The position numbers were made by a program, and so were the translations under genes. Below are positions 2,180-60,906 of a DNA stretch of 64,000 nucleotides, one piece after another; position 1 is the first letter of the stretch; every line of letters begins with the position of its first letter. This stretch comes from Eledone cirrhosa (lineage: Eukaryota): contig OZ024742.1 in assembly GCA_964016885.1 (NCBI GenBank), positions 42,284,001 through 42,348,000 on the forward strand, in the 5' to 3' direction. The notes below the pieces were generated by a model that searched no databases, was not told the origin of the DNA, and worked only from the letters and a program-made list of their open reading frames with translations.

Positions 2180-5100
2180 TGTAGTGCTCTCTAGACAAGG
2201 GAAGTAGCTAATGGTGACCCCGAACACGCAGCAAAAAACAAATCCATTTATTCACCATCGCCTAAAAGTGGTGACAAATATTTTCATACACTATTACAAT
2301 TTATTGCTACACAAACTATTGCTAAACAATTCACTAAAACGGTGAACCCAACAACAACACAGAAAAGAATTGTTCTCGACTCTAGGAAGTTCATTTTATT
2401 TCAGTCAGTTCGTGTGGGGCAAACAAAATAAAAAAATTGAAGAAACAAATCGTCATGTTGACAGCGTGATACTACACCAAAATAAAAAAAATAAAAAATG
2501 TCCCTCGCGTTTTCGGTTCAACCAAGCTTTCGTTTTTTTTTAAGTCACCATCTTACTTGCTTGGTGCTATATTTTTACTTCAGCTATTCATGGTACTACC
2601 ACGTGTGCGGTAGTTACCCCCCCCCCCCCGCATTATGGAATTTTCTCGTGTGCCTACTTCAGCAGTTTCAGTCGTCACTTCTTCTGCTTTCAAAACCCAG
2701 CCTGCTTCACCTCGTGAGGACTCAATGTTGAGAGTCATTGATGTGTTAACTCGGCATCTCTATCCCAGTTATTTCAAGGTTTTCGATCATACCAAGTCAG
2801 AATCAACCCAGCTAAATGTGTGTTTGGTACAGGTTCACTGGAATTCCTTGGACATCTTATAGATTCGGAAGGCATTCGACCTCTGCCATCTAAGGTGGAA
2901 GCGATTCAGCGCATCGCACCCCCACCTCCCTGAAACAATTACGTCATTTCTTGGGATTAATTAACTTTTATCGTCGCTTCATTCCTAACAAGTTGTTTCC
3001 CTTGACACAGTTTTTAAAGGCTGTGAAAAAGAAAGATGCTCCTATTTCACTTTCTGCTGATGCCTTGGAGTCTTTTGAATCCGTCAAGTCCAAGATAGTT
3101 TCCTTCCTCGCCCATCCTGTTGCAAACGCGAGGCTTTCTTTAACTGTTGATGCATCCGATCATACTGTTGGAGCAGTTTTGCAACATACGATCGACCACC
3201 AGGTTCAACCACTGGCATTTTTTTCACGCCAACTTAAATCAACTGAACAGAAATACACACCTTTGACAGAACTTTTGGCAGTTTATCTTGCCGTGAAGCA
3301 CTTCCACCATTTTTTGGAAGGGCGGGAGTTCACGATATTCATGGACCATAAACCGCTAACATTCGCTCTCCAATCCAAGTCCGACAGGTACTCTCCGAGA
3401 GCATATAGTCATTTGGATCTCATCTCCCAGTACACCAGTGACATTCGTCATATAGCCAGAGCTGCCAACATACCCACGGACGCACTATCTCGACTTTCTG
3501 TGTTCTCTTGCGTCTCCTGCACATATCAATTTGGTTGCCATGGCAACTGACCAACCTACTTTGGATTCGTTGGACATTTCATCTGACCAGTTCTCCTGCT
3601 GCAAATTGGAATATTTACCTCTTCCATCTTCTGAAGGGAAAATTCTCTGCGATATTTCTACTGGCTCACCCAAACCGCTCGTTCCAGATTGTCATCAACG
3701 TACTGTGTTTGATGCACTTCATTCCTTGTCGCATCCCGGCATATCTGCCACGGTGAAGCTCATCATGGCCCGATTTTTCTGGCCTAATATGCGTCGTTTA
3801 ATCACCGGCTGGGCACGTTCTTGTTTGAAGTGTCAGCGTTCTAAGATTTACCGACATGTCTGTACTCCTCTTGGCAAATTCAGCCCGCCAGACGCCCGTT
3901 TCAGTCATATTCATATGGATATTGTTGGTCCGTGGCCCGTTAATCGTGGGTTCACATATTTATTGACCTGTATCGATCGTTTCTTTCGGTGGCCTGAGGC
4001 CATACCACTAGTGGACATAACAACTGAGTCCGTTGCTCGAGCTTTCATTTCCAATTGGATTGCACGCTTTGGTGTTCCTTCTAAAATAACTACGAATCGC
4101 GGACGACATTTCGAGGCTTCCTTATTTCGTTAAATATCACGACTCTTGGGTGCTCATCACATTCATACGACCACCTATCACCCAGCCTCCAATGGAATGG
4201 TGGAGAGGTTTCACAGAGATTTGAAAGCTGCATTTCGTGCTACTCCTGATCTGCAACGTTGGACCAAATTTTTGCCAATCGTGCTTCTTAGTTGTCATTC
4301 TGCCATTAAGACAGATTTGGGTTTCTCTTCTGCTGAACATCTTTATGGTACCACCTTGACTCTTCCTGGTCAAATGTTAGCACCGGTGGATTCATCGCAT
4401 CTTGACCCAGCATCATATGTCACCAGTATTCGTTCGTATTTCTCGGATCTTCCACCAATGAACCCTCGTAACCAGTCTATTTCTTCTGCTGTTCCATCGG
4501 ACATCTCTATGTGGACACACATTTTTGTACGGAATGATTCTGTCAAGGGACCTCTTACGTCACCCTACAATGGACCTTTTCGTGTGCTTTCGCACACACC
4601 AAAACATTTCACAGTGGTTGTCAATGGTCGAAAAGAGACAATATCCATTGACAGAGCAAAGAAGGCTTTCTCTGAAAGTCTCATTACAATGCCTGACATA
4701 CCTTGTACATACACTCCCACACCAACACCTTCACCTCCACTACAAACACCACATACCACACAACCTTATGTCACACAAGGTGGCAGGACAGTAAAATGGC
4801 CACGTAAACTCTCAAAAACAATATACATTTAAACCCTAGTGGCATTAACAAACTTCTTTTTTCAGTTTCAGATAGAACTAATCAGAAAAGTCTGTACACT
4901 AGTGATGTATGAACTATTTGATTTTGAAGAAACTTTGAACTTACCATTGAGCATTAATTTTTCTCTGCTCCTTTATATTAACTTTGAATTATTAGTTTGT
5001 TACATTCACATTTTTTCTTTGTAAAATGCATTTACTTGTTTTGTGCTTTTTTTTTTGCTATTTGCTTCAGTTGCGAGCTCATGTTTTATTCATGCACTTT

Positions 5101-25396: not shown

Positions 25397-25550
25397 CATG
25401 GGTGGAGGTGGTGAGAGCAGACCTCAGATCGCTGAAACTCACGAAAGAGATGACAAAGAACCGTGACAAGTGGAGAGATGCTCTGCTGAATAGGACCCGT
25501 CCAATCCTTGCAAGCAGGGAAAAGTGGACGTAAAATGATGATGATGACGA
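25397..25550 (+). mobile_element. RTE LINE extreme 3' end
   Basis: Closely matches 60755-60906 (TWxEVVRADxRSL...RDKWRDALLNRTRP) and ends in a (ATG)n tail. Confidence 0.85.
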
Positions 25551-27102: not shown

Positions 27103-28510
27103 CCAGACTCTTTTGCTATCAGAAATGCAGTGAAACAGTGATTAACCATTAGAAATGTGCAACTAACGATGCTATTGTTTACTAATTGTAATATAAAATA
27201 TAATAAATACTAAATAATAAATCTCAGAGCTAACAAAAATACAAAAAAGATACATTTTTTTGTATACAAAATAGTTTTCCATACATCTACTTCCAACCTA
27301 CATAAAAATGCAGATGTTCACAAACACACAACTGAGGTGAAATAAAATAAGAAATATTTCAGATTATGATTTACTATTTTCAGATCTACTAGTTGTCTTA
27401 TTAATTCGACAAAAAAAAAATGATATTTTTAGTCTTAATCACAAGGATTTGTTGGTGTTATAAATCGGTATCTTGGTGATTGAGTTTCAGTCGTTAATTA
27501 AGCAGATTATAAGATTATAAACCTTATGTGAGAGGTTGAAATTAAAAGCTTGAGGGATGGATGAGAGAGAGAGAGAGAGAGAGAGAGTATAATGCAGGCT
27601 TATTAGCTTATACCTAACTGTAAAAGCAATTGGCCAATGTATAAATATAATGGATAAGGAATATATAGGAAATCTCTGTAATGAATCTGTAGCAGAATTT
27701 AATCTTAAACAAACAGAATAATGAAAATATAGAACTGTCCAAGTAACCAGAGGCTTTAGATTTTAAGTAGCAGCTGGATCTTTCAAATTTCTAAGGAGAT
27801 AATCTTCTCAGTGTGAAATATTCACGCTTATCTGTATGGAGAGAAGAGTATGCAGTAGAACAAAGGAAATATGAACTGAACTCAATCTTAAATTATTGTA
27901 AGCATTAGTGTGCATGAAATAATTCCCTATATACTTATTTACTATGTAATCAATCCAGGTATTTGATGACTGAAAATGATACACAATGGCCAGTCAATTC
28001 AAAGGCAATCTATAATCTGATTTCCCTGCAGGTTCAGATGATTTTGTGTGGGAGTGATTGAGGAAATGTTTTATATTGTATTGTAGTCATCTGATCAGAC
28101 TAGCTTCAAAATGTGACAACCCATCTAATCCATGCAAGCATGGAAAATAGATGTTATATATACACTTCAACAGCATTCTAATAAATATTATCTGTAAAGG
28201 TAATCAAAGTCATCATCATCATCATCACCGTTTTACGTCCGTTCTTCCACGCTAGCATGGGTTAGACGGGTTGTCCTGTTGTGTGCAGTGTCTGGTCGGC
28301 TGACCATGCCTTGCTCATACAGGAACTGATCTGGCTTGATTTCTACAGCTGGATGCCCTTCCTAACACCAACCTCATTTACAGTGAGTGCTGGGTGCTTT
28401 TTCGTGGCGCCTACACGTCCACTTTACAGTGTGGGCTGGGTGCTTTTTTGCCGTGGCACCTCCACGACCACCTTGCGGTGGGGGGTGTGGGGGCATATTG
28501 TTTATATGCT

Positions 28511-29677
28511 TCAGCATGTACCCATGGGAGGTCGGGTACTCTGTATTACTGCGTGACGCCAGAAGTCACGGTTGTGTGTCATTGTCTTTGAGAGGTGTAA
28601 TTGGGTAAGGTCGGCTTTTATCACCTCATCCCAGGTCATCTTGGGTCTCCCCACTCCGCGGTTTCCATCAACTTCTAGTGCTCTGCACCTTTTTATGCAG
28701 CTGTCATCCTTCATACGCATCACATGTCCATACCAGCGCAACCGCCTCTCCTGCACACAGCATTTGATTCCTCTTATGCTCAGTCTCTCTCTCAATTCAT
28801 TTATGCTTTGTCGTTCACGTATATTACTGTTACACATCCATCGGAGTATGCAGGCTTCGTTTCTCTCTAATCTACGTAAGTCTTCCACCTTCAGCACCCA
28901 GGTCTCACTACCATGCAACATCGGTGTTCGGATACACGCATCATACAGTCTGCCTTTCATTCTGAGGGAGAAGCCTTTTGCAGCTAGCAGTGGTAGTAGT
29001 TCCCTAAACTTCTTCCATCCCGTTCTTACCCTAGTTATTGTACTTTCTGAACACCCACCTCCGTTGCTAATTCGGTCACCTAGGTAGCAGAAGCTGTCTA
29101 CTGTTTCTACAGGGCCCTCCCAGAGATTGGTGGTACTTGTTTCCTGTGGCTGTTTGCTGCTTGCTGTTTCAGCACAGCTGCTGCATGTGAATCCTACATT
29201 CTTAATTAAGCTTCCTGAGATCCCGCTACATCTCTTGTGTACCCATTGTTTGCATTTGGGGCAGAGAATGGAGTTCCTACCTACACCTTTCCTACATACT
29301 GAGCAAGGCCATTTCCCTGAGGGGATCTGGGTTCTGCTTTCTCGTCTACTTACAAGGACCTTAGTCTTTGTCATGTTGACTTTGAGACCCTTTCTCTCTA
29401 GTCCCTGCTTCCAGGTTTGGAATTTATTCTCTAGTTCTATCATAGATTCAGCTATGAGTGCGAGGTCATCAGCATACAGGAGTTCCCATGGGCATCCGGT
29501 CTTAAATTCCTCCGTTATTGCCTGCAGGACTATGATGAACAGGAGAGGGCTAAGAACAGAGCCCTGGTGGACCCCAACCTGTACGCTAAATTCCTCGCTA
29601 TACTCATTGCTCATCCTAACTTTGCTGACTGCTCCCCTATACATGGCTTGTACCGCTTTCACAAGCCATTCATACAT
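28511..29677 (-). mobile_element. 5'-truncated RTE-clade LINE with an open 388-aa RT and C-terminal ORF, in EMC10 intron 1
   Basis: GVHQGSVLSPLLF, LLYADDLAL, GLKVNMTKTK, Cys-rich insert CSVC...CPKC..WVHKRC...CSSC, FCYLGD, GSETW, RRLRWYGHV, GRPKMTW. Adjacent 28210-28480 is a SINE body with a (CAT)n tail. Confidence 0.92.
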
Positions 29678-29713
29678 ACAAGTATGTATACATTTTTGGA
29701 GGACAACCTATGT

Positions 29714-47800: not shown

Positions 47801-50800
47801 ATCCTGTCGAGGTTAGCTTTGCCTTTCATCCTTATGGGGCCGATAAAATAAAGTACCTGTCATGCCCTGGGGGTTGATTTAATCGAATTTCCCCTCCCCC
47901 CAAAATATTGACCTTGTGCCTAAATCAGAAACCATTATTAGGGCAATGGCTTGGCAAAGTTGTTAACACATCAAAGAAAATGTTGTATGGTATTTAGTTG
48001 TGCCTCTTTACATTCTAACTTAAAATTTTGTCACGGTCAACTATTCCTTTCATCTTTGCACGTTCAATAAAATAAAGTAACAATCAATTAATAGTCAATT
48101 TAACCATTCCATTGCCATATTTCTAATGAAAGAAACTGCCTATGATTTCAAAACCATCTTGAAAATAATCAAATGTTGTCCAACCTTTGCTAACAAGGAA
48201 AGCCGATGTTAAATGATGATGCTGGGGATGAACTAACTTTCTCATAATTAGGTTAGTGTTTGAAGCATAACTTAACCCTTTAGCATTTAAACTGACCATA
48301 TCTGGCCAGAATTCTCTCACCCCTTTCTGTCAAAACCAGCTGTAACCGGCTGCTCATACTTATATTAAGGTATTGTTCTCAAAATAAATAATATCAAAAT
48401 CTCATAGATTCAATATTATGCGAGATAATTATATGAAAAAAGTGTTTACCATGAAAATACAATAGTAAATATAGAGTAATGTAAAGGCTAAAGGGTTAAA
48501 GGTACTGACAGAATTATGATAGAAAGTTTTTAGATAAATATAAAGTCTTTAAAATTTATCATAGAACCATAGACAGTTTCAGTGGTTTTGTATCAACTTT
48601 CTTGTCCCTCCAAGTGACTGGCTTTGTGTTTAATTTAGAAGCCATTATTATGAGGGCGATCGATTGGCAGTATCGGTAGAGCATCGGACAACATGCTTTG
48701 CAGCATAGAGTTAAAGACCTTTACATTATGAGTTCAAATCCCACTGAGGTTAGATTTACCAATAATTCATTTTATTGATCTTAGAGTAGTGGATCCCAAA
48801 TTTTTGTTGCAGATCTCTTTTATGATTTTACAAAAATCACGGAATTCATATTCTTTGGAGAATTCCAACCACACTAATTTTAAGAGATTAACCCTTTAGC
48901 ATTTACATTACTCTATATATACTATTGTATTTTTGTGGTAAAGGCTTTATCTTATACTAGCAGTGGTACCCGGTGTTGCACGGGATAAGGTATTTTGGAA
49001 CGCGGGCCCCCCAACAGACCTAATCGTGGAAAAACTGCATGCCAGGACAATATGTAAAGAAAATAAACCGAATACTCTGATGGCTGGATAATCTTTAAGA
49101 TTTTCCTCGATGAAGCAGGAAAAATGCAGGTTTTCACCTAATGCGGGCCCTAGGGCAGTGGTCGCCAACATGGGTTCCGCGGAACCTTGGGGTTCCGTAA
49201 AACAAACTCCGGGTTCCTTAAAAAAATAAATATTTACATTACCATTAATATTTTGGGTTTTCTGAAAAAGGTGCAAAGAAAATGCCAAAGGTGCAATGTA
49301 TAAATGAACAAGTACTATTGTAGTGTACACAGGTTCTCCACTCCAATTCGTCGAAAACACTACTTTCAGTTTCTCACTTGAATTAGCAGAAAAACACTGT
49401 TCTGAGATTCGTGGAAATTGAATACTTTCAATTTCACATCAATTCTTGAAAAGACATAGTTTTCTGAATTCCGAGGATTTGACTACTACTCATAATACAC
49501 TATTTGAACTTAGAAATTGACCAATCACGAACAAGTAAATGTTGGTCGATGACAGCATAACTTTAAACTGAAAACTTCAGTTCAGCGAGGTCTCTCAGCC
49601 AAGAGGCAGGGTCAGTTCGCTGTTCTCACAACGTAAGTTCAGTAGAATGTTTTCAATAGAGAACACGTTTTAATCTGCTGCCCTCACAAAAGCTTTAAAG
49701 TCGTCTAAAGTTTCCTCACTGAGTGAACTCGCTTACTAGTCGTTTTCAACATGCATCCAGTTCCACAGACAATTCTAAATAAGAACACGTTACATTCTAT
49801 TGTACTTTGCACAGAAAATATAATGCCTGTAAAGTTTTGACTACTAACAAAGGTAATTTTGTATTCCATGCATACACTATAAACTTTTCCACACAATTAT
49901 GTATTCATTTAATGACATCTGCATTCACAATTGAGAAATTACTTTATACAATAAATATATATGTCCATAAACATTTGACTAAACTTTATTTGTTCCAATC
50001 TAATATATGTTTAACGCAGCCTAAAGCCTTCTTATATTATATCTAACTTTGAGTCAAAATAGATAGAAGATATCTGAATTAATTTCCAATACCATCGTCA
50101 CATCTACACTATCAGCTGATTTGCATTTTTTGCACCTTTTAGTATGGCGGATATTTAAATATATTTACATTACCAATAATATTTAATACAACCCTAAAGT
50201 AGTATATGCAGGAAGTGCTGGACTCTGAAAAAAATTTCTTCTAATTGTTCATAAATTTGCACCTTTTTCAGTAACCCTTAATATTTTAATATTATTATAA
50301 GACTTTAAATAATATGTTTGCCATCCTAAAATGGAGAAATTTCAATTTTTAAAAATTAAAATTTTTTTTTAACTAGTTAAGTTTTTCCAAATATCTAAAA
50401 TTAAAGTTAATTTAAGTACTTTTTGTAATTTAAAAAACTGTTAATTTCTCTTGTTTATTAATGTCATATTAAAAATGTTAACTGTAGATAAATAACATTG
50501 ATATAATGTCTACTGCAAAGAAGCTGAAGTTAGATACCAGCAGTAAGGTTAGACAGTGGTGTGATGATTGTTAGATATGGATTTCAAAAAGTTGACACTA
50601 AAAAAGATACACCAGATCAGCCCATGTGTTTGCTATGTTCAAAAGTTCTATCAAATAGCTGTTTAAATCCTGCTAAACTTAAGACACATTGATACTAATC
50701 ACACCAATGATAAAAACAAGTCACTGGAATACTTTACTTCGCTGAAAAACAACATTAAAAAATCACAAGCTAATATGTATGACTTGTTTTATAAAAAAGT

Positions 50801-51760
50801 CAGATAGAAATAAAGCTTTAACAAGAACATCTTTTGAGATTTCACATTAGGAGAACAGTTAATTCTGCCAAGTATAAAAATTGCTACAGAGAATCTTTTT
50901 GAAAGCTGCAGTATTAAGGACAAAGAAAAATTAAGCCAGTTACCATTGTCAGCAAATACCGTAAAAAGAAGGATAATTGATATTTCTTCTTATATAGAAA
51001 ATCAGATACTAACTGCACTAAAGAAAAGCCCATGTTTTGGACTGTAAGTGGACGAAACTACGGATATTAATAACAAGGCTCAATTAATTTGCTATGTACG
51101 GTTTGTAGACCTTGATAAAAAAGAATTAGTAGAAGAGTATTTGTTTTGTCTGGCATCACAACTAAAGGTCAAGATATATTCAATAAAATTGAAGAGTATT
51201 TTTTAAAAAATGGTGTATCTTGGAGCAAGTTGACTTCAATAACAACAGATGGAGCAGCTACAATGACTGGTAAAAATTCTGGTTTGATTGCAAAAATTAA
51301 AGAACAGACTCCAAATTGTATTTCAATTCATTGTATGATTCATCGAGAGGTTTTGTGTTAAAAAAAAATTCAAAGACAGAGCTGCTCAAATATTAAATGA
51401 CCAGCTGAAAGACATTGTCAAAATTATCAATTTGATCCATGCAAGAGTAAAAAATTCTAGAATGTTTGAATCTATTTGTGAATCTTCTGGAAGTAATTAT
51501 AATAGATTGTTATTGAACAATGATGTGCGTTGGCTGTCTTTTGGGGATGCTATGAAGAGAGTTTTTGAACTGAGAGAAGAAATAATAGTTTTTCTAAAAA
51601 AACAATGATGAAAGAGCAAGTGTATTAGAAACCAATGAATGGAATGTGCAACTCGCTTATTTAGTAGACATTTTTGGTGAACTGAACAAACTAAATAAGT
51701 GTCTTCAGGGTAACAATGCAGATATTTTTACTTCAATCAATTTTATTACATATTTTCAAG

Positions 51761-52105
51761 GAATGCCCTGAAGAATTTGTTGACAATACAAAGCCAGATA
51801 ATGATAAAATAGATAGGAAAGCTAAAGATGAAATCCATCAATTCAAAGAAGCCATCTTTCCCAGTGACTACAACCCAGATAACAAGAAGAAGCGAGCTTC
51901 AGGAAGTGATGCATCACATGAATCTAGCAAACGTCCACTTACTGACCAAGACTTGAAAGTATTGTGCATGGAGGGAAAGCTGGAAAAACTTAAACTGGCT
52001 GAACTAGGAAAAATGATGAGAGAAAATGATATCAAATGTTTTGCAAAGAAAAAGAAAGAATTAATTGATGCCATCAACAACCATTATGGTGTCAGTGGCA
52101 CATAG
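51761..52105 (+). pseudogene. XRCC6: Ku70 C-terminal gene fragment (linker + SAP domain), stop-free, 5'-truncated copy
   Basis: ECPEEFVDNTKPDNDKIDRKAKDEIHQFKEAIFPSDYNPDNKKKR...SKRP...EGKLEKLKLAELGKMMRENDIKCFAKKKKELIDAINNHY resembles human Ku70 [41 protein letters not shown]...SKRPK...[38 protein letters not shown] (recalled); 3' UTR with AATAAA 52180-52185. Confidence 0.85.
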
Positions 52106-52197
52106 ATCACCAAAACAGTTAATATATAATAGACATTACAAGCAATGAATGTCAAAGATTGAATTAAGTCTGGGTAAAAAATAAAATAATACACACA

Positions 52198-52535
52198 TGG
52201 AGGCACATGGCTTAGTGGTTAGCGCATTGGCCTTGCAATCGAAAGGTTGTGAGTTCAATTCTCAGACCGGGTGATGTGTTGTTTCCTTGAGCAAGACACT
52301 TTATTTCACATTGCTCCAGTTTACTCAGCTGTAGAAATGAGATGATAGGGACTGGGGCCCATATCATTCCACTGCAAAGTGGTCGTGGAGGTGCCACGGC
52401 AAAAAAGCACCCAGCACTCACTGTAAATGAGGTTGGTGTTAGGAAGGGCATCCAGCTGTAGAAATCAAGCCAGTATCAGTTCCCGTCCCACCCTTGCAAG
52501 CAGGGAAAAAGCGGTCGTAAAATGAAATGATGATT
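52198..52535 (+). mobile_element. Full-length tRNA-derived SINE family B (CORE-like centre, RTE-derived tail)
   Basis: A-box TGGCTTAGTGG, B-box GAGTTCAATTC, CCTTGAGCAAGACACTTT core, tail CCCTTGCAAGCAGGGAAAAAGCGGTCGTAAAATGAAATGATGAT. Near-identical copy at 57168-57516(-); older or partial copies ~340-463, 19090-19365, 26550-26825, 61130-61220. Confidence 0.9.
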
Positions 52536-55099
52536 TTCAATCAAAATTAAACATCTTTATAAAAAGAATTGAATTGGACAATTACTTTCAAACCTTGAAA
52601 TAGAGCTTAAAGAGAGAAAATTTTGACTCCAGCAATCTAAAGAAGATTATTCTTTCTCATTTAAATGTGCTTTCCACAGGTTTTTCAGATTATTTTGACT
52701 TGATGGAAAAAATATTGTTAGCAGAAATTTATGGATAAAAACCCGTCCACCGAGATCGAGCAGTTAGTGTCAGAAAATGACGCTGGAAATTGTAAAAATT
52801 TACTACCTGCACAATGCTTACATCAGTTGATGGATTTGAATTCAAACGAAGACCTGAAAGTGATATTTGAAAGCAGAAAGAAAGAACTATGGATCGACTT
52901 ATTCTTGATTGGGGAGTTTAATGAAATCAGCCAACTTGCATTGAAGTATTTGACTTTATTCCCATCTAGCTACTTGTGCGAAGGGTTTTCGCAGTTGGTG
53001 GAAATCTGCACAAAGAGGAATAAACTGTCAGCAATTGACGAGTGTATGAGACTGGCATTAACTAGTGTTGAACCTCGATTTTCTAAACTCACTGATGAGG
53101 CGCAGCAGCAGAAAAGCCATTGTGTTCGATTACATACACACGCATGAAACACTAAAATAAATAAATACTTTATTTTTTTTGAAAAGTTTTGTATTGTATA
53201 GGTTCCGTGAAGAATTCAAAATATTTAGAGGGTTCCTCGGTTTTAGAAAGGTTGGCGACCACTGCCCTAGGGGATCAAGAAAATGAATTTTTTTTATGTG
53301 CATAATATGCCTTGAAATTTCGGGAAAATCGGCTAGACGTAACGCCTCAAAAAGCCCTAAAAAGCTGAAAAAAGGAAGTTTTTCACCTAATGCAGGCCCT
53401 AGGATTTTCTTTGCTTACGGTATGAAGAAGAGACTGACTAATACATAGTTACAATTTCAAGGAAATCGGTCTGACGTAACGCCTCAAAAAACCCCTAAAA
53501 AGTTGGAAAAAAACGCAGTTTTTCACCTAATGCGGGTCTTAGGGGATGAAAAAGTTGAATAACACTCCCTGAAACATAAGTAATACACATGTAAAGTTTG
53601 AAAAAAGTCGGTTGGGTACTTCTCGAGTTTTAGGATTCAAACTCACACACACACAGACAGACACAGGGAAGTGACGTAATGCAGACAGTCAGACATACAG
53701 ACAGATATTATAAGGGCGCGACGTTATATTTATGTATCTATCTAAAAAGAGAAAGACAAAGAATTATAGAGAGAGATCGTTAAATCGCCTATTGCGGTCC
53801 CCAGGGCATTGAAAATTTGAAATTGTTTTTGCTCAGAACACTCCCTGAAACATAAGTATTACATGTGTAAAGTTTGAAAACAGTCGGTTGGGTGGTTCTC
53901 GAGTTTTAGGGATTCAAACTCACACACACACACAGACAGACATCCTCAGTTTTATATATATAGATAATTGTTTCTACTTTAGGCACAAGGCCAGCAATTA
54001 CCCAGTGCATTACTGGTACTTTATTTTATCGACCCCGTAAGGATGAAAGGCAAAGTCAACCTCAGCGGGATTTGAACTCAGATCGTAAAGAGACGTAACT
54101 ATGTTGGAAAGCATGGCGTCCGACCCTCTACCGATACTGCCAATCCACGACACTTTATATATATAGATACTTATCTCACATAATATCAAATCTATGAGAT
54201 TTTGATGTTATTTAATTTTGAGAATAATACCTTAGTGTCCATATGAGCAGCCAGTTACAGCCAGTTTGAACAGAGAGGGGTGAGAGAATTCTGGCCGGAT
54301 ACAGCCGGTTTAAATGCTAAAGGGTTAAATGGAACAAAAATATATTTAGTGAGAGAATATATCCACATAAAGTTTTATAAAGTTTTATTAATACACCTTA
54401 TCTCATGTGTTCAATTCCTGGCCACATCATTTCATATTGTTTTTCATAATACATAAAACACCCAAGGAACCTTCTTTGATATGCAATCTCACATGAAGGT
54501 AGCTAAACCTGCACAGGTGTGAGCTGTAAATTTAATTCCATTTTTTTTTATCTTGTATGTAGTACTACTCACTTATGGAAATACTGATTTAGAACAAATA
54601 AAAGTATTTGGTGCACTCTGAGCATATTGTTACAAAAATGTATTTATATATTTTAGCCTATAAATATAAATAACTTAACCCTTTAGCATTTACATTACTC
54701 TATATTTACTATCATATTTTTATGGTAAAGGCTTTATCTTACATAATTACCTCACATAATATCAACTCTATCAGATTTTTATATTATTTATTTTGAGAAC
54801 AATACCTTAGCATTAGTATGAACAGAAAGAAGTGAGAGAATTCTGGCCGGATGGCCGTTTAACAGGAAATTATTTTGTGCTTATTTTTTCAGTTTATATT
54901 TTTTACATTTTTTAAATATAATTTTATTCTCTGAGTGTACTTAACTATATTTTGTAGTACACCTAACCACATTTTGTACTGCAATGTTTGGGAGGCCTGA
55001 TCTAGAGGGACGTAAATTGGTATAACTAAATACTGCAAATATTTGGTCTCATTTTGAATTTTTACTAAATTTGATGAATCCCCCTTTTTCTCTTTCAAG

Positions 55100-55226
55100 G
55101 TTGTGATAGTGGATTTGGTTTTGCAATTGCTAAAAAATTGGATAGCATTGGTATGAAAGTGTTAGCTGGCTGTCTGGATCAGTTTGGTACAGGAGCAACA
55201 GACTTAAAAACATCTTGTTCAGAAAG
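55100..55226 (+). CDS. SDR9C-like dehydrogenase exon 2
   Basis: tttcaag|GT TGT...GAA AG|gtgaga; (G)CDSGFGFAIAKKLDSIGMKVLAGCLDQFGTGATDLKTSCSE(R). Confidence 0.93.
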
Positions 55227-55596
55227 GTGAGATATTTACTTATTTCTTTCCATAGACTTTTATCATAAATTAGAAGGTGAATGTGTTTCACCCATGTGTA
55301 ATATTCTTCAAAGCAGCTGTTTTTTTTTCCCAAATTTCCTTTGCTGGAAGCTAGCTGTCAAACCTTATTATCCCTCAACACTGTATCTCATCTAAAATTC
55401 TCTTCCATTCGATATTTTCCATTCATCTACTAACTTTCGGTAGATCAAATTCAATATGGACCACACAAACCATACACAATACAATTCTGATATTGCTTTC
55501 TTTAACCAAGGAATATCTAAAAGCTATGAAAACTGCTTATGCTTTTCAGATTAATGAATAAAAAGCAACTCCCTGATGGTAAGAGTTTCTGTAGGA

Positions 55597-57622: not shown

Positions 57623-60606
57623 TGTTTTTCATCACATATTCTGTGATTTATTTGTTTTTCTTCACAGAGAACAACAACAAATAGTGATTGAGGAGGTCAC
57701 AGAATATGTGGCGAAAGAGTTTTGATAAAATAACCAACAGCTAATAATAATAAAGCTGATATGAAAGTCAAATAGTGCATGTTTTTTATTGGCAAAATGA
57801 CTATCCCCAAATATAACAATATCCGTTTCAACACATGGTTCCACATCAAGAATCTTGCAAAACAAATACATTTTATATTGTCTTTTTTTTTCAAGCCAAT
57901 GATATTTATTTTAAGATGTAGTTACCTATAATTCTCTCAAATGTTTGTCATTATTTTCTCCAGGTTAGTAAGAAGGCAAATAAAAGCTAACTTCATAGCT
58001 CAAATGTTAAATAGCTAAAGCCATATATCAAAACTGAATTATGTACATGATATGTCTACTTTCCCATGGTGGTATGAGATAGATGAGACTTTCTCAAGCA
58101 GTATATTTCTATGACCAAACCATGCTTTATTTTCAATTATCGTATATACACTCTAAACCCATGCTAGCATGGAAGATAGACATTACATGATGATGATGAT
58201 GATGACACTGCTGACATTGTATTCTTAAGCTGTAGTATTGTTTATGCTGGACCTCAACAAGTCTCACAACTCCAAACAGCTTTAATATGAAGATGCCATG
58301 TCGAAACACAAGCATGCACGCGCATCATCATCATCGTTTAACGTCCATATTCCACGCTTGCATGGGTTTGGACGGGGGTTTTCCCACTTGAGGCAAGAGT
58401 GGTTGTCTTGCTCGCATAGGACTGTCTGGCGGGTTTTCTACGGCTGGATGCCCTTCCTAACACCAACCACATTTACAGTGTGGAACTGGGAGGTTTTTAC
58501 CGTGTTACCTACACGGCCACATTATAGCGTGGACTGTGTGTTTTTTTGTTGTGACACCTACACGACCTCATTTGTTTCATACATTGGGCATTAGTCTGCT
58601 GATCTACATATCTTCAGGAATACAAATCTTGCCATAACCATCAACATAAAAACATGCAAAGAGGTAAAAAGTAACTTCATATTACAATATATATATAATT
58701 GAAGTATTTCCGTAGGAAAGGTAAAGGAAAAGAGTGCTCTTATTTTTCCCCTTTGCATTATGTCCAGTATTTTATTTCAGCCTCGCTTTCATTTATACTA
58801 GAATCTGTTTTGAAATCCATATCTCACTTCCATTTTAATAAAATTCATTTCATTCTGATGATTGAAAGCAGACGTATGTGCCAAGCTCGTCTATCTTCGT
58901 GAAACCTTTGGTAAATGAAATCTTATGTTGTTTATTACATAACTATATATATATATATATATATATATAAAAGTTTAACCCTTTAGCATTCACATTACTC
59001 TATATTTACTACTGTATTTTCACAGAAAAGGCTTTATTTAACATAATATTGAATCTATGAGATTTTGATATTATTTATCTTGAGAACAATACCTTAATGT
59101 CAGTAAGAGCAGCTTGTTAATCATACAACCATGCTTGCATTTACATTTTGCTTTATTACAATTATACATTGCTTTTATGTGAGACATTCTACTTGCTTCA
59201 GTTCTCTTTAGCTAAAAACAAACACCATTTTGAGCTGATGATGTTTTGTGGAGTTGGGCTATGTGATTGCTCAACCTCTCCAAACTTGTAACCAAATTTT
59301 TCTCAAATTACATTCTATCATCTTAAAAAAGTTGAACACATTGGATGGTATTGTTCTGTGATGGTCATGGCTGAAAAATCTTTGATCATAAGTCTGCTTG
59401 ATCGGAGCTGATCACCACCATGATAATGACATGTACCAGCAAACCAACAATGACACTTTATATGGTCGTTTTACCTGCTAGAAATAGCAGCTGAATATCC
59501 CTCAAATTATACTCCACCCTTGGCATAAGGAAGGGACACATTTGTTCATGTAGTCCTCCATGCATCTAAAAAGACGATGGTCATGGCTGGAATGCATTCA
59601 ATCTTATGTCTGCTTGATTTGAGTTGACCTGGGGCTAAATAACATTGCTTTTCGTCCATTTTTCCATGCTGGCATGGGTTGGATGGGTTGAGACTGGACA
59701 GGTAGGAGAACCTTGTTTTACTTATGTTCTATTTTTGGCATAGTTTCAACAGCTGGATGCCCTTCCTAATGCTAACCACTTTACAGAGTCTACTGGGTGC
59801 ATTTTATCATGGCACCATCACTATGTTGAGTGTAATTGGTTTTAGGAAGTTTCCACTTATAAAAACTGCTGTTCCAATAATTTATGCAAATATTCATGTA
59901 AACAATTTATTAGTGGGGGAAAAAAATGGTCAAAATATATTTTATAAAACAAGAGCAAGTATTAAGTTCTTAGAAAGTTTTATGTCAGGTATCAGTGTAA
60001 CAGTAAGAACATAAAATTATTACATAATGTTATGGTGATTGTTAAAATTGGCAACTTCTCTCAAATTAATAAGGAAGCTTCTTTGTAGTTGCTCAGGATG
60101 TTAGAAATAGCAGCCAAATTCCCTTAAATCACACTGTACTGTTTTAAATAAGGAAGGAAGTCTTATGTTAAGATTAGCAACTTCTCTCAATCCAACAATG
60201 GAGCTTCTGTGCAGTTGTTCAATCTGTTAGAAATAGCAATTGAAAGTACTGAGGGAGTTTCTTCCTTAAAACAGGAAGAACACATTGGATAATGTAGTTA
60301 TAGATGTTTAAAAAATAGGATGGTCATGGCTGCTAAGATTCTACTATACTAAGTTGTTTATTTTAAAGTGTGTATGTTTACCTAAAAACCTTCCTTGGTA
60401 ATTTTATGTAAGAACATCAGCTTAATGATGAGAAAGTTCATTATATTACTAAATCTCTTAATTATTTTCAAAATTCATTAAAAATCATAGACATTTTATA
60501 TTTTTTATTAGAAAAATTAATGAAATGAAATTTAAGCTTACACCTATGTAAATTTAGCTGGCTTCCTACAAGCTTTTATCTCATAAGTTTCTCAAGTGTT
60601 TTAACC

Positions 60607-60906
60607 CTTTTGGGTATAAGAAGGATAAGTTGTGGTGTGCAGGAGAGAAGGCTGAGATGGTATGGACATGTGATGCACATGGAGGTTGACCGCTGGGCAA
60701 AGAAGTGCCAAGAAATCCCAGTAGAAGGAAGACGCAGTAGAGGTAGACCACGTAAAACATGGGCGGAGGTGGTGAGAGCAGACATCAGATCGCTGGAACT
60801 CACCAAGGAGATGACGAAGGACCGTGACAAGTGGAGAGATGCTCTGCTGAATAGGACCCGTCCAACCCTTGCAAGCAAGGAACAGCGGACGTAAAATGAT
60901 GATGAT
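60607..60906 (+). mobile_element. RTE LINE 3' end
   Basis: GIRRISCGVQERRLRWYGHVMHM...VEGRRSRGRPRKTWAEVVRAD...; ends GGACGTAAAATGATGATGAT. Confidence 0.9.

What the first reader, a model, noticed from the sequence alone, without database searches (positions are those of the whole stretch)
51732..52544. Ku70(XRCC6)-SINE chimeric retrocopy: a host mRNA 3' end apparently mobilised through a SINE's RTE-type tail
Seen: a ~795-bp insert (51741-52535) bounded by a 9-bp direct repeat TTCAATCAA (51732-51740, 52536-52544); removing it rejoins the transposase (LQGNNADIFTSI|KIK). The insert is ~20 nt of AT-rich junction, a stop-free Ku70-like linker + SAP coding segment, a 3' UTR with AATAAA (52180), then ~12 nt later and with no poly(A) a complete same-strand SINE ending in (ATG)n. 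One TSD pair encloses both parts, which points to a single integration. Known: RTE LINEs recognise their own 3' tail rather than poly(A), and template switching produces bipartite retrogenes such as U6-L1. Inference: either RT primed on the SINE and jumped to the 3' end of Ku70 mRNA, or the parental XRCC6 locus has this SINE just past its poly(A) site and a read-through RNA was retroposed. Either is a SINE-assisted route to gene-fragment duplication without L1-style poly(A) capture.
Basis: partly seen in the sequence, partly recalled or inferred. Interest (0 to 1): 0.9.

Follow-up and report, generated by a model that had tools for sequence, protein, structure and literature searches.

The report
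Ku70–SINE retrocopy riding a DNA transposon
In an octopus-like genome, an intron-free piece of the DNA-repair gene Ku70 is fused, with no poly(A) tail, to a short jumping element inside a cut-and-paste transposon at six places, most likely because the copying enzyme started on the short element and dragged the gene piece into one insertion, which the transposon then likely spread as dead cargo.

Summary
The fragment is the 3' end of Ku70 mRNA with three introns removed exactly (parent 3.8 Mb away; 2 differences in about 440 nt), fused to a full-length young SINE whose tail matches RTE-like LINEs. The 9-bp 'TSD' already occurs twice in empty transposon copies. The true TSD is 8 bp (ATTTTCAA), and the insert is 51760-52532. 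The parent has no SINE after its AATAAA, and a spliced Ku70 contig runs 139 nt past the junction, so the join is not at that transcript's end. The host hAT element (49156-53264) carries this identical cargo at six loci, four of them with their own target duplications. Best reading: one SINE-primed insertion with a template jump onto Ku70 mRNA (0.5). Rivals: a lost SINE allele in the parental 3' UTR (0.33), or sequential insertions (0.1). The cargo decays neutrally, and no second chimera turned up in 86 screened loci. Each step has a precedent; I did not find the combination in print. The scan noted similar SINE-tailed retrocopies in other genomes.

The parts
49148..49155 (.). Left 8-bp target-site duplication of the host hAT element (CCCTAGGG, TA at positions 4-5)
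49156..53264 (+). Host hAT DNA transposon (Buster/Charlie-like) with 14-bp perfect terminal inverted repeats at 49156-49169 and 53251-53264; about 3.3 kb when empty; transposase broken by stops and frameshifts
   Evidence: DUF4371 E=8e-8 with weak zf-BED and hAT-dimer hits; relatives named SCAND3-, FAM200A-, ZBED5- and GTF2IRD2-like
51752..51759 (.). True left TSD of the retro-insert (ATTTTCAA); its last 3 nt (CAA) are also microhomology with the Ku70 mRNA
   Evidence: single copy of this 8-mer at the site in the empty hAT copies; parent exon sequence
51760..52196 (+). 5'-truncated spliced Ku70 (XRCC6) cDNA: end of the C-terminal arm, linker and SAP region, stop codon at 52103-52105, 91 nt of 3' UTR with AATAAA at 52180-52185; exon joins after 51791, 51892 and 51979; out of frame with the transposase
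   Evidence: differs from the parent only at 51927 and 52195
52195..52198 (+). mRNA-SINE junction: one mismatch to the parent, then CAT matches the parent, with AT shared with the first two bases of the SINE; no poly(A)
52197..52532 (+). Full-length young SINE: tRNA-like head (52208-52265), 117 nt shared (92%) with the 3' UTR of an RTE-like LINE (52370-52486), about 50-nt tail shared (86%) with another RTE-like LINE end, ATG repeats
52533..52540 (.). True right TSD of the retro-insert (ATTTTCAA); its first AT continues the SINE's ATG repeat (priming microhomology)
53265..53272 (.). Right 8-bp TSD of the hAT element (CCCTAGGG)

Best explanation
A spliced 3' piece of Ku70 mRNA and a full-length RTE-tailed SINE sit inside one 8-bp target duplication in a hAT transposon at six loci, most likely because an RTE reverse transcriptase primed on the SINE tail, ran to the SINE's first base and jumped onto Ku70 mRNA, after which the loaded transposon likely spread by cut-and-paste. 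Steps. (1) SHOWN: the SINE tail is shared with RTE-like LINE ends in this genome, and the 3' junction has AT microhomology with the target. (2) INFERRED: the enzyme copied all 336 nt of the SINE, then switched template through 2-3 nt of microhomology to a point 11-13 nt after an AATAAA in the Ku70 3' UTR. The acceptor was either a tail-less minor 3' end or an internal site. (3) SHOWN: it copied about 440 nt across three exon joins and stopped at a 3-nt microhomology, leaving one TSD. (4) SHOWN: identical junctions in 6 of 6 copies point to one insertion event. (5) INFERRED: a transposase acting in trans moved the disabled element to new sites, with some exchange with empty sister copies; one copy is a local inverted duplicate. 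(6) INFERRED: the cargo is a non-functional passenger about 1.5-3 million years old (rough borrowed clock).
For: Introns removed exactly. Empty-site-defined 8-bp TSD. Exactly 6 matches to the SINE-tail/hAT junction, the same 6 loci that carry Ku70, so no SINE-only or Ku70-only form was seen. No young SINE at or within 15.5 kb downstream of the parental junction, and the X4 transcript contig reads parental sequence through it. The SINE is complete to base 1, as expected if the enzyme ran off the template. The junction lies in the window after the only AATAAA of the UTR. Template-switch chimeras by stringent RTE/L2 LINEs and their SINEs are documented for U6 (PMC4476161). Distinct hAT TSDs at the window, L016, L018 (perfect) and L020 (6 of 8). 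The window copy and L020 share private changes absent from the empty copies 1.3 and 1.9 kb from the insert, yet sit on different contigs with different TSDs. Read depth at the spliced joints is 40-54 against 5-13 for unique DNA. Decay: 6 missense, 1 nonsense, 1 frameshift and 2 silent changes among copies; 2 of 6 copies are broken.
Against: The switch itself is not observable. The junction is not the end of the one transcript seen (X4 runs 139 nt further, to an ATTAAA region), and no poly(A) remnant was copied. A lost SINE allele predicts the same final structure. Partner-LINE clade naming rests on architecture and recall, not on a tree. The filled hAT backbones do not form one clade in the trees (AU p=0.033 on 1,124 columns; p=0.31 on 2,449 columns), and the window/L020 left arm shares variants with empty copies L023/L034. 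Part of the spread may therefore be gene conversion or gap repair rather than transposition. None of 8 fetched hAT copies has an intact transposase.
Confidence: 0.5

Rival explanations
1. SINE-handle 5' transduction from a lost allele. A polymorphic SINE once inserted at this base of the Ku70 3' UTR. The spliced mRNA of that allele carried the SINE inside it, and the RTE enzyme primed at the embedded tail and copied on into the exons. The allele has since been lost or is absent from this assembly. Spread by the hAT as in the main reading.
For: The junction lies inside the UTR of the transcript seen, so such a SINE would be part of mature mRNA. The family is young and huge (17,489 exact heads), so transient alleles are expected. 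The founder differs from today's allele at 2 sites. No template switch is needed, and the lack of poly(A) is explained. Unchecked scan notes describe this route in other genomes.
Against: No SINE at the site in the assembly or in the X4 transcript. Only one event arose from the supposed allele (6 of 6 copies share one 5' end). Landing 8-20 nt after the single AATAAA would be a coincidence of roughly 6% (about 23% if the three ATTAAA variants count; my estimate).
Confidence: 0.33
2. Two sequential insertions. A tailed or tail-less Ku70 retrocopy entered the hAT first. A SINE then inserted at its 3' end and deleted the rest up to the target duplication (or the reverse order), before the element spread.
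For: Many SINE copies of this family have no clear TSD (for example L094, L109 and L115 among 27 other loci), so the absence of a separate SINE TSD is weak evidence. An older independent Ku70 processed pseudogene exists on C2. A scan note reports a tail-less retrocopy in this genome (unchecked).
Against: It needs a second hit within a few bases in a short interval. No intermediate among 6 filled and 29 empty copies or in the exact-pattern genome search. The SINE tail abuts a clean 8-bp duplication with the AT priming microhomology typical of this family.
Confidence: 0.1
3. The two RNAs were joined before reverse transcription (RNA ligation or trans-splicing), or a cDNA of Ku70 was captured during repair of the SINE's 5' end.
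For: Ligation and trans-splicing are proposed for human L1 chimeras (10.1101/2025.02.02.635956).
Against: No splice donor at the parental junction. The SINE is intact to base 1, which (from recall) should be a 5'-triphosphate end and a poor ligation substrate. No chimeric contig in X4 (contigs drop rare forms).
Confidence: 0.07

Closest known systems
U6-RTE, U6-L2 and U6-SINE template-switch chimeras of Anolis and opossum (Doucet et al. 2015, PMC4476161; passages seen)
   Same: A cellular RNA copy fused 5' of a stringent-LINE or partner-SINE 3' part in the same orientation; attributed to template switching.
   Different: Here the 5' partner is a spliced protein-coding mRNA, 5'-truncated and cut inside its UTR; the SINE is full length; the host is an invertebrate; a clean TSD is proven by empty sites.
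Helitron-amplified nested retrogenes in Myotis bats, e.g. RPLP0 in HelibatN424, six copies (Thomas et al. 2014, PMC4224331; passages seen)
   Same: An mRNA retroposed into a DNA transposon, empty exemplars exist, and the loaded element was then amplified.
   Different: Those are L1-type, poly(A)-tailed copies in rolling-circle Helitrons. Here the copy is SINE-tailed and the carrier is a cut-and-paste TIR element whose transposase the insert interrupts.
Multicopy Pack-TIRs such as frog Pack-hAT-N8_XT (Tan et al. 2021, PMC8277862; passages seen)
   Same: Host gene fragment inside a hAT element at several loci with distinct TSDs; rare in animals (4 cases, 1.4%).
   Different: Those are DNA-level captures; that survey explicitly discarded intronless captures of multi-exon genes, so this class was filtered out.
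mRNA/lncRNA-L1 5' chimeras in human, 17 cases (Law and Burns 2025, 10.1101/2025.02.02.635956; abstract and section 24 seen); WEIRD-MgSINE of Magnaporthe (PMC2104539; passages)
   Same: Gene-derived RNA 5' of a retroelement within one TSD, with no such element at the parental gene; the same ambiguity about a lost allele is stated there.
   Different: Human cases are mostly first exons ending at splice donors joined to L1; the fungal 5' partner is non-coding and its SINE is 5'-truncated.
SVA 5' transduction (MAST2-SVA F1; search listing only; details recalled)
   Same: A spliced host transcript carried 5' of a non-autonomous retroelement; the model for the lost-allele rival.
   Different: There the source element is identifiable and the chimera spreads by retrotransposition; here all copies share one insertion site and spread with the hAT.
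NUKU retrocopies of KU70 in primates (PMC8496227; abstract seen)
   Same: Repeated retroposition of the same gene.
   Different: L1-made, poly(A)-tailed, long copies, one under positive selection; here a short decaying fragment.

Membership tests
Processed retrocopy | Introns of the parent removed exactly | tested here: met
   3 of 3 introns (811, 1046, 1680 bp; GT-AG) absent
Processed retrocopy | Flanking TSD and 5' truncation | tested here: met
   8-bp TSD defined by 29 empty sites; starts inside an exon
L1-type processed retrocopy | Poly(A) tail at the 3' end | tested here: not met
   The UTR runs straight into the SINE in 6 of 6 copies
Template-switch chimeric retrogene (U6-L1/U6-SINE type) | Two RNA copies fused directly in the same orientation inside one TSD, the 3' part ending in a retroelement tail | tested here: met
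Template-switch chimeric retrogene (U6-L1/U6-SINE type) | The two parts are not adjacent at the source locus | tested here: inconclusive
   Not adjacent in the assembly or in the X4 transcript; other haplotypes could not be examined
Template-switch chimeric retrogene (U6-L1/U6-SINE type) | The 5' partner is joined at its natural 3' end | tested here: inconclusive
   Join is 11-13 nt after an AATAAA, but the one transcript contig continues 139 nt; internal switches are described for U5
Template-switch chimeric retrogene (U6-L1/U6-SINE type) | The switch happens during reverse transcription | not testable with these tools
   Needs a retrotransposition assay
5' transduction (SVA-like) | Source element present in or after the parental gene | tested here: not met
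   No young SINE within 15.5 kb downstream of the junction; a lost allele is not excluded
RTE-partner tRNA-SINE | 3' tail shared with a LINE of the same genome | tested here: met
   86% over about 50 nt with LINE ends at window 25496 and 60857; 92% over 117 nt with a LINE 3' UTR
RTE-partner tRNA-SINE | Partner LINE belongs to the RTE clade | tested here: inconclusive
   RVT_1 (+PHD) ORFs whose relatives are single about 1050-aa endonuclease-RT proteins; ends in ATG repeats; clade label recalled, no tree built. The CR1-like LINE that dominated one search has a different (ATT)n tail
RTE-partner tRNA-SINE | tRNA-derived head | tested here: inconclusive
   Rfam tRNA 18.5 bits, E=0.31, below the 29-bit cut-off, at 52208-52265
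hAT superfamily, Buster/Charlie group | Short TIRs and 8-bp TSD | tested here: met
   14-bp TIRs; perfect 8-bp TSD in 3 of 6 filled and 5 of 8 empty copies examined
hAT superfamily, Buster/Charlie group | Transposase related to SCAND3/ZBED5/FAM200 (Buster-derived) | tested here: met
   SCAND3 C-terminus tied to Spin/Buster in PMC3575427 (passages)
hAT superfamily, Buster/Charlie group | TA at target positions 4-5 (definition recalled; paper not held) | tested here: met
   Seen in all 5 distinct filled-copy flanks and in the 6 empty copies with a matching TSD
Autonomous hAT | Intact transposase ORF | tested here: not met
   0 of 8 empty copies fetched, nor the window copy
Pack-TIR (Tan et al. 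2021) | Host sequence inside a TIR element at several loci with distinct TSDs | tested here: met
Pack-TIR (Tan et al. 2021) | DNA-level capture (intronless captures excluded) | tested here: not met
   The cargo is spliced and has its own TSD

The most novel reading that the evidence does not exclude
In retrocopy-poor octopod genomes, a tail-specific RTE enzyme duplicates host mRNA pieces by using its SINE as a primer handle and jumping onto mRNA, and cut-and-paste transposons then multiply the product: a recurrent three-element relay (LINE enzyme, SINE handle, hAT carrier) for exon duplication that needs no L1 and that Pack-TIR surveys filter out.
Probability: 0.25. Interest if true: 0.72.

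Novelty: new variant of a known kind. Interest (0 to 1): 0.52.

Why it matters
Tail-specific (stringent) LINEs are thought unable to copy host mRNAs in trans (PMC5470649, section 5), and this genome shows no retrocopy for two ribosomal-protein probes. This locus is an unusually clean, young fossil of a way round that limit, with parent, empty site and both junctions known to the base. It also shows a retrocopy at six loci inside a cut-and-paste transposon. The bat study claimed first report of such amplification for any DNA transposon, with Helitrons, and the animal Pack-TIR survey excluded this class. The two main mechanisms make opposite, cheap predictions (SINE allele at the parent or not). 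It is one event with dead cargo, so no host function is implied.

Tried and rejected
Rejected: the 9-bp TSD and the '20-nt junction as parental intron' (both are hAT sequence); read-through into a SINE present at the parent; an in-frame transposase-Ku70 fusion (the transposase frame stops 4 codons into the insert); selection on the SAP fragment (2 of 6 copies broken, mostly amino-acid-changing differences); assembly artefact (read depth and spliced joints in DNA runs); the abundant CR1-like LINE as partner (different tail in the 30 loci examined). Generality screen: of 291 SINE heads with an upstream AATAAA I fetched 90 (4 were the chimera). I scanned the 149 nearest of 241 non-chimera open frames (71 loci, up to 828 nt upstream) plus one positive control with Pfam (counts). 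The control was found. Hits at L160, L207 and L138 were ordinary GT-AG exons with the SINE in an intron; L162 was a weak zinc-finger hit and L200 a LINE. This screen misses long UTRs, short frames and junctions without AATAAA. By eye, 0 of 27 other closest SINE copies had an mRNA-like flank. Ribosomal probes S3Ae and S2 returned only intron-containing genes (2 of 3 and 3 of 5 candidates matched). No RNA holder was listed by the run search; X4 is not on record as RNA, and I infer that from its spliced contig. X4 shows parental and empty-hAT contigs only, which is no evidence on expression of the chimera. Tail hairpins were not significant against shuffles (z -0.5 and -1.2). RAD runs X16-X18 gave only 1-2 reads each over the first exon join: weak. 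The trees did not establish monophyly of the filled copies.
Full report
OBSERVATION. The window holds a stop-free frame at 51695-52105 that matches human Ku70 residues 500-607 (E=2.5e-9) and Pfam Ku_C. Its closest full-length relatives are Octopus XRCC6 proteins at 61% identity, so the host is an octopus-like cephalopod. A search of the own genome with 51741-52195 returned 11 of 11 candidates: six contiguous copies at 99-100%, four exon-sized pieces of a parent gene at C3:38560573-38564547(-), and one 72% match on C2. The parent's three last introns (811, 1046 and 1680 bp, all GT-AG) are missing exactly. The window copy differs from the spliced parent only at 51927 and 52195. It is a young processed retrocopy.

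BOUNDARIES. A search with the transposon arm found 138 candidates, 40 scored and 30 fetched. All 29 non-window loci lack the insert yet carry both TTCAATCAA 9-mers (27 of 29 with both exact) and the AT-rich stretch between them. Comparing empty and filled sites gives an 8-bp TSD, ATTTTCAA (51752-51759 and 52533-52540), and a 773-bp insert (51760-52532). The 5' junction has 3 nt of microhomology with the mRNA, and the 3' junction continues the SINE's ATG repeat into the TSD's AT. Short TSDs that start with AT, or no TSD at all, are usual for this SINE. An unbiased flank search picked this 8-mer in 4 of 4 chimeric loci. The empty transposase reads through the site. In filled copies that frame stops four codons into the insert, and Ku70 lies in another frame.

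THE SINE. It starts at 52197, is 98% identical to dispersed copies, and has 17,489 exact 22-nt heads in the genome. The head is tRNA-like but scores below the Rfam cut-off. Bases 52370-52486 match the 3' UTR of a LINE in the window at 92%, and the last about 50 nt match other LINE ends at 86%. These LINEs have RVT_1 (+PHD) ORFs whose relatives are single endonuclease-RT proteins of about 1050 aa. That fits the RTE clade known from octopus (PMC9115989, passages), but I built no tree and the label is partly recalled. The CR1-like LINE that filled the 30 loci has a different tail.

THE JUNCTION. The parent has no SINE after its AATAAA; the nearest same-strand copy downstream is 82% identical and 12 kb away. 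In run X4, which is not on record as RNA but holds a spliced 2064-nt Ku70 contig, the sequence is parental at both junctions and runs 139 nt past the SINE join, to just beyond an ATTAAA. The join is thus inside that transcript's UTR, 11-13 nt after the only AATAAA, with 2-3 nt of microhomology and no poly(A). An AATAAA at that distance precedes 291 of 17,489 SINE heads (1.7%; background 1.2-2.4%), so it is not enriched genome-wide.

The insert lies in a hAT element at 49156-53264 with 14-bp TIRs and an 8-bp TSD. Its transposase hits DUF4371 and relatives named SCAND3-, FAM200A- and ZBED5-like (SCAND3 is tied to Spin/Buster in PMC3575427, passages). All six Ku70 copies lie in this element with identical junctions, and the exact SINE-tail/hAT junction occurs at those six places only. 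The window copy, L016 and L018 have perfect and different hAT TSDs, and L020 matches at 6 of 8. L019's left end was not found, and L017 is an inverted duplicate of L016 that shares about 930 bp of flank. DNA runs X1 and X3 (one sample, perhaps the assembly's own) show the spliced joints at depth 40-54 against 5-13 for unique pieces. The window copy and L020 share private changes far from the insert, which supports transposition of the loaded element. Against a pure transposition story, the filled backbones are not one clade in the trees (AU p=0.033 on 1,124 columns; p=0.31 on 2,449 columns), and the window/L020 left arm shares variants with empty copies L023 and L034. Some conversion or gap repair between sisters is likely. 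None of 8 fetched empty copies is intact, so the mobilising enzyme is unidentified.

AGE AND FUNCTION. Mean pairwise differences among five copies are 1.0% (Ku70 coding), 0.9% (UTR), 2.6% (SINE) and 1.5-2.0% (hAT arms). With the Octopus vulgaris scale of 0.065 per 18 million years (PMC13282606, passages) this is roughly 1.5-3 million years, an inference with a borrowed clock. The changes are 6 missense, 1 nonsense, 1 frameshift and 2 silent, and 2 of 6 copies are broken, as expected for neutral decay. An ATG at 51716 could start a 129-aa arm-linker-SAP peptide in the four intact copies, but nothing shows that it is expressed.

MECHANISM. A single integration has about 0.9 support overall. I favour SINE-primed reverse transcription with a template jump onto Ku70 mRNA (0.5): the SINE is complete to base 1, the parent is SINE-free, and the join sits just after the AATAAA with microhomology. 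A polymorphic SINE allele in the UTR, since lost, gives the same product (0.33) and cannot be excluded from one assembly. Sequential insertions (0.1) need a second hit within a few bases and left no intermediate. Ligation, trans-splicing or cDNA capture: 0.07.

GENERALITY. I fetched 90 of the 291 AATAAA-flanked SINE loci (4 were the chimera) and scanned the 149 nearest of 241 other open frames plus a positive control. The control was found; the other hits were intron-flanked exons, a weak zinc finger and a LINE. Two ribosomal-protein probes found no retrocopies. An older processed Ku70 pseudogene joining at least five exons lies on C2. Retrocopies seem scarce here and this chimera looks rare, within the limits of a Pfam-only screen.

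COMPARISON. Template-switch chimeras with RTE, L2 and their SINEs are known for U6 (PMC4476161, passages), for a fungal non-coding RNA with Mg-SINE (PMC2104539, passages), and for 17 human mRNA/lncRNA-L1 insertions (10.1101/2025.02.02.635956, abstract and section 24; its supplementary table was not seen and may hold closer cases). Stringent LINEs are said not to retropose host mRNAs (PMC5470649, passages and section 5; PMC3747384, passages). Tail-less retropseudogenes are known (PMC5322556, abstract). Amplification of nested retrogenes by a DNA transposon was reported for bat Helitrons (PMC4224331, passages). Multicopy Pack-TIRs are rare, and that survey dropped intronless captures (PMC8277862, passages). 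KU70 retrocopies are known in primates (PMC8496227, abstract). PMC4758252 (passages) gave only background on mollusc SINEs. Ten searches of the held library showed no mRNA-SINE chimera in an invertebrate and no retrocopy spread by a hAT; most subscription journals are not held, and no supplements were read. Unchecked scan notes describe SINE-tailed mRNA retrocopies in other genomes, one with the SINE still in the parent's UTR. That raised my odds for the lost-allele rival slightly.

VERDICT. Observation partly confirmed, interpretation partly supported; a new variant of known kinds. Interest 0.52: a clean, testable fossil that combines two rare routes, but a single event with dead cargo and an undecided junction mechanism.

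Noticed in passing
L021 (G000:C2, about 292.4292-292.4300 Mb, minus strand): Older (72%) processed Ku70 pseudogene joining at least five parental exons. A same-strand RTE/SINE-like 3' piece follows about 220 bp later and ends in ATG repeats; such pieces occur at about 0.18 per kb per strand, so this may be chance or an older chimera.
   Followed up: partly
L016/L017 (G000:C1:247.500-247.520 Mb): Inverted duplication of the loaded hAT plus about 930 bp of right flank, 10 kb apart, with a different left flank; possibly aberrant transposition.
   Followed up: partly
window 52370-52532, 28000-29707(-), 60529-60906(+), 25400-25546(+): The SINE looks composite: its middle matches the 3' UTR of one RTE-like LINE and its last 50 nt match the end of another.
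   Followed up: partly
L210-L217 and the window hAT: All fetched hAT copies that show this region as a long frame stop at the same place (after ...HREVLC), so this 138+ copy family may have spread as a non-autonomous element.
   Followed up: no
hAT copies window, L020, L023, L034: Mosaic sharing of variants between filled and empty copies suggests gene conversion or gap repair among sister transposons.
   Followed up: partly
window 48950-49155 and 53265-53950: The hAT is itself inserted in another repeated element with internal tandem subrepeats.
   Followed up: no
window 55099-55227 (+): An AG-GT bounded exon encoding a GCDSGFG motif, recalled as typical of short-chain dehydrogenases; no Pfam hit at E 0.01. 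The hAT may lie in or before this gene.
   Followed up: partly
window 2894-4832 (+): Broken LTR-retrotransposon pol fragment (RNase H and integrase domains).
   Followed up: no
L058-L087: A very young, abundant CR1-like LINE with many open 945-aa frames and an (ATT)n tail.
   Followed up: no
L090-L117: This SINE inserts preferentially into (TA)n microsatellites, with AT microhomology at both ends.
   Followed up: partly
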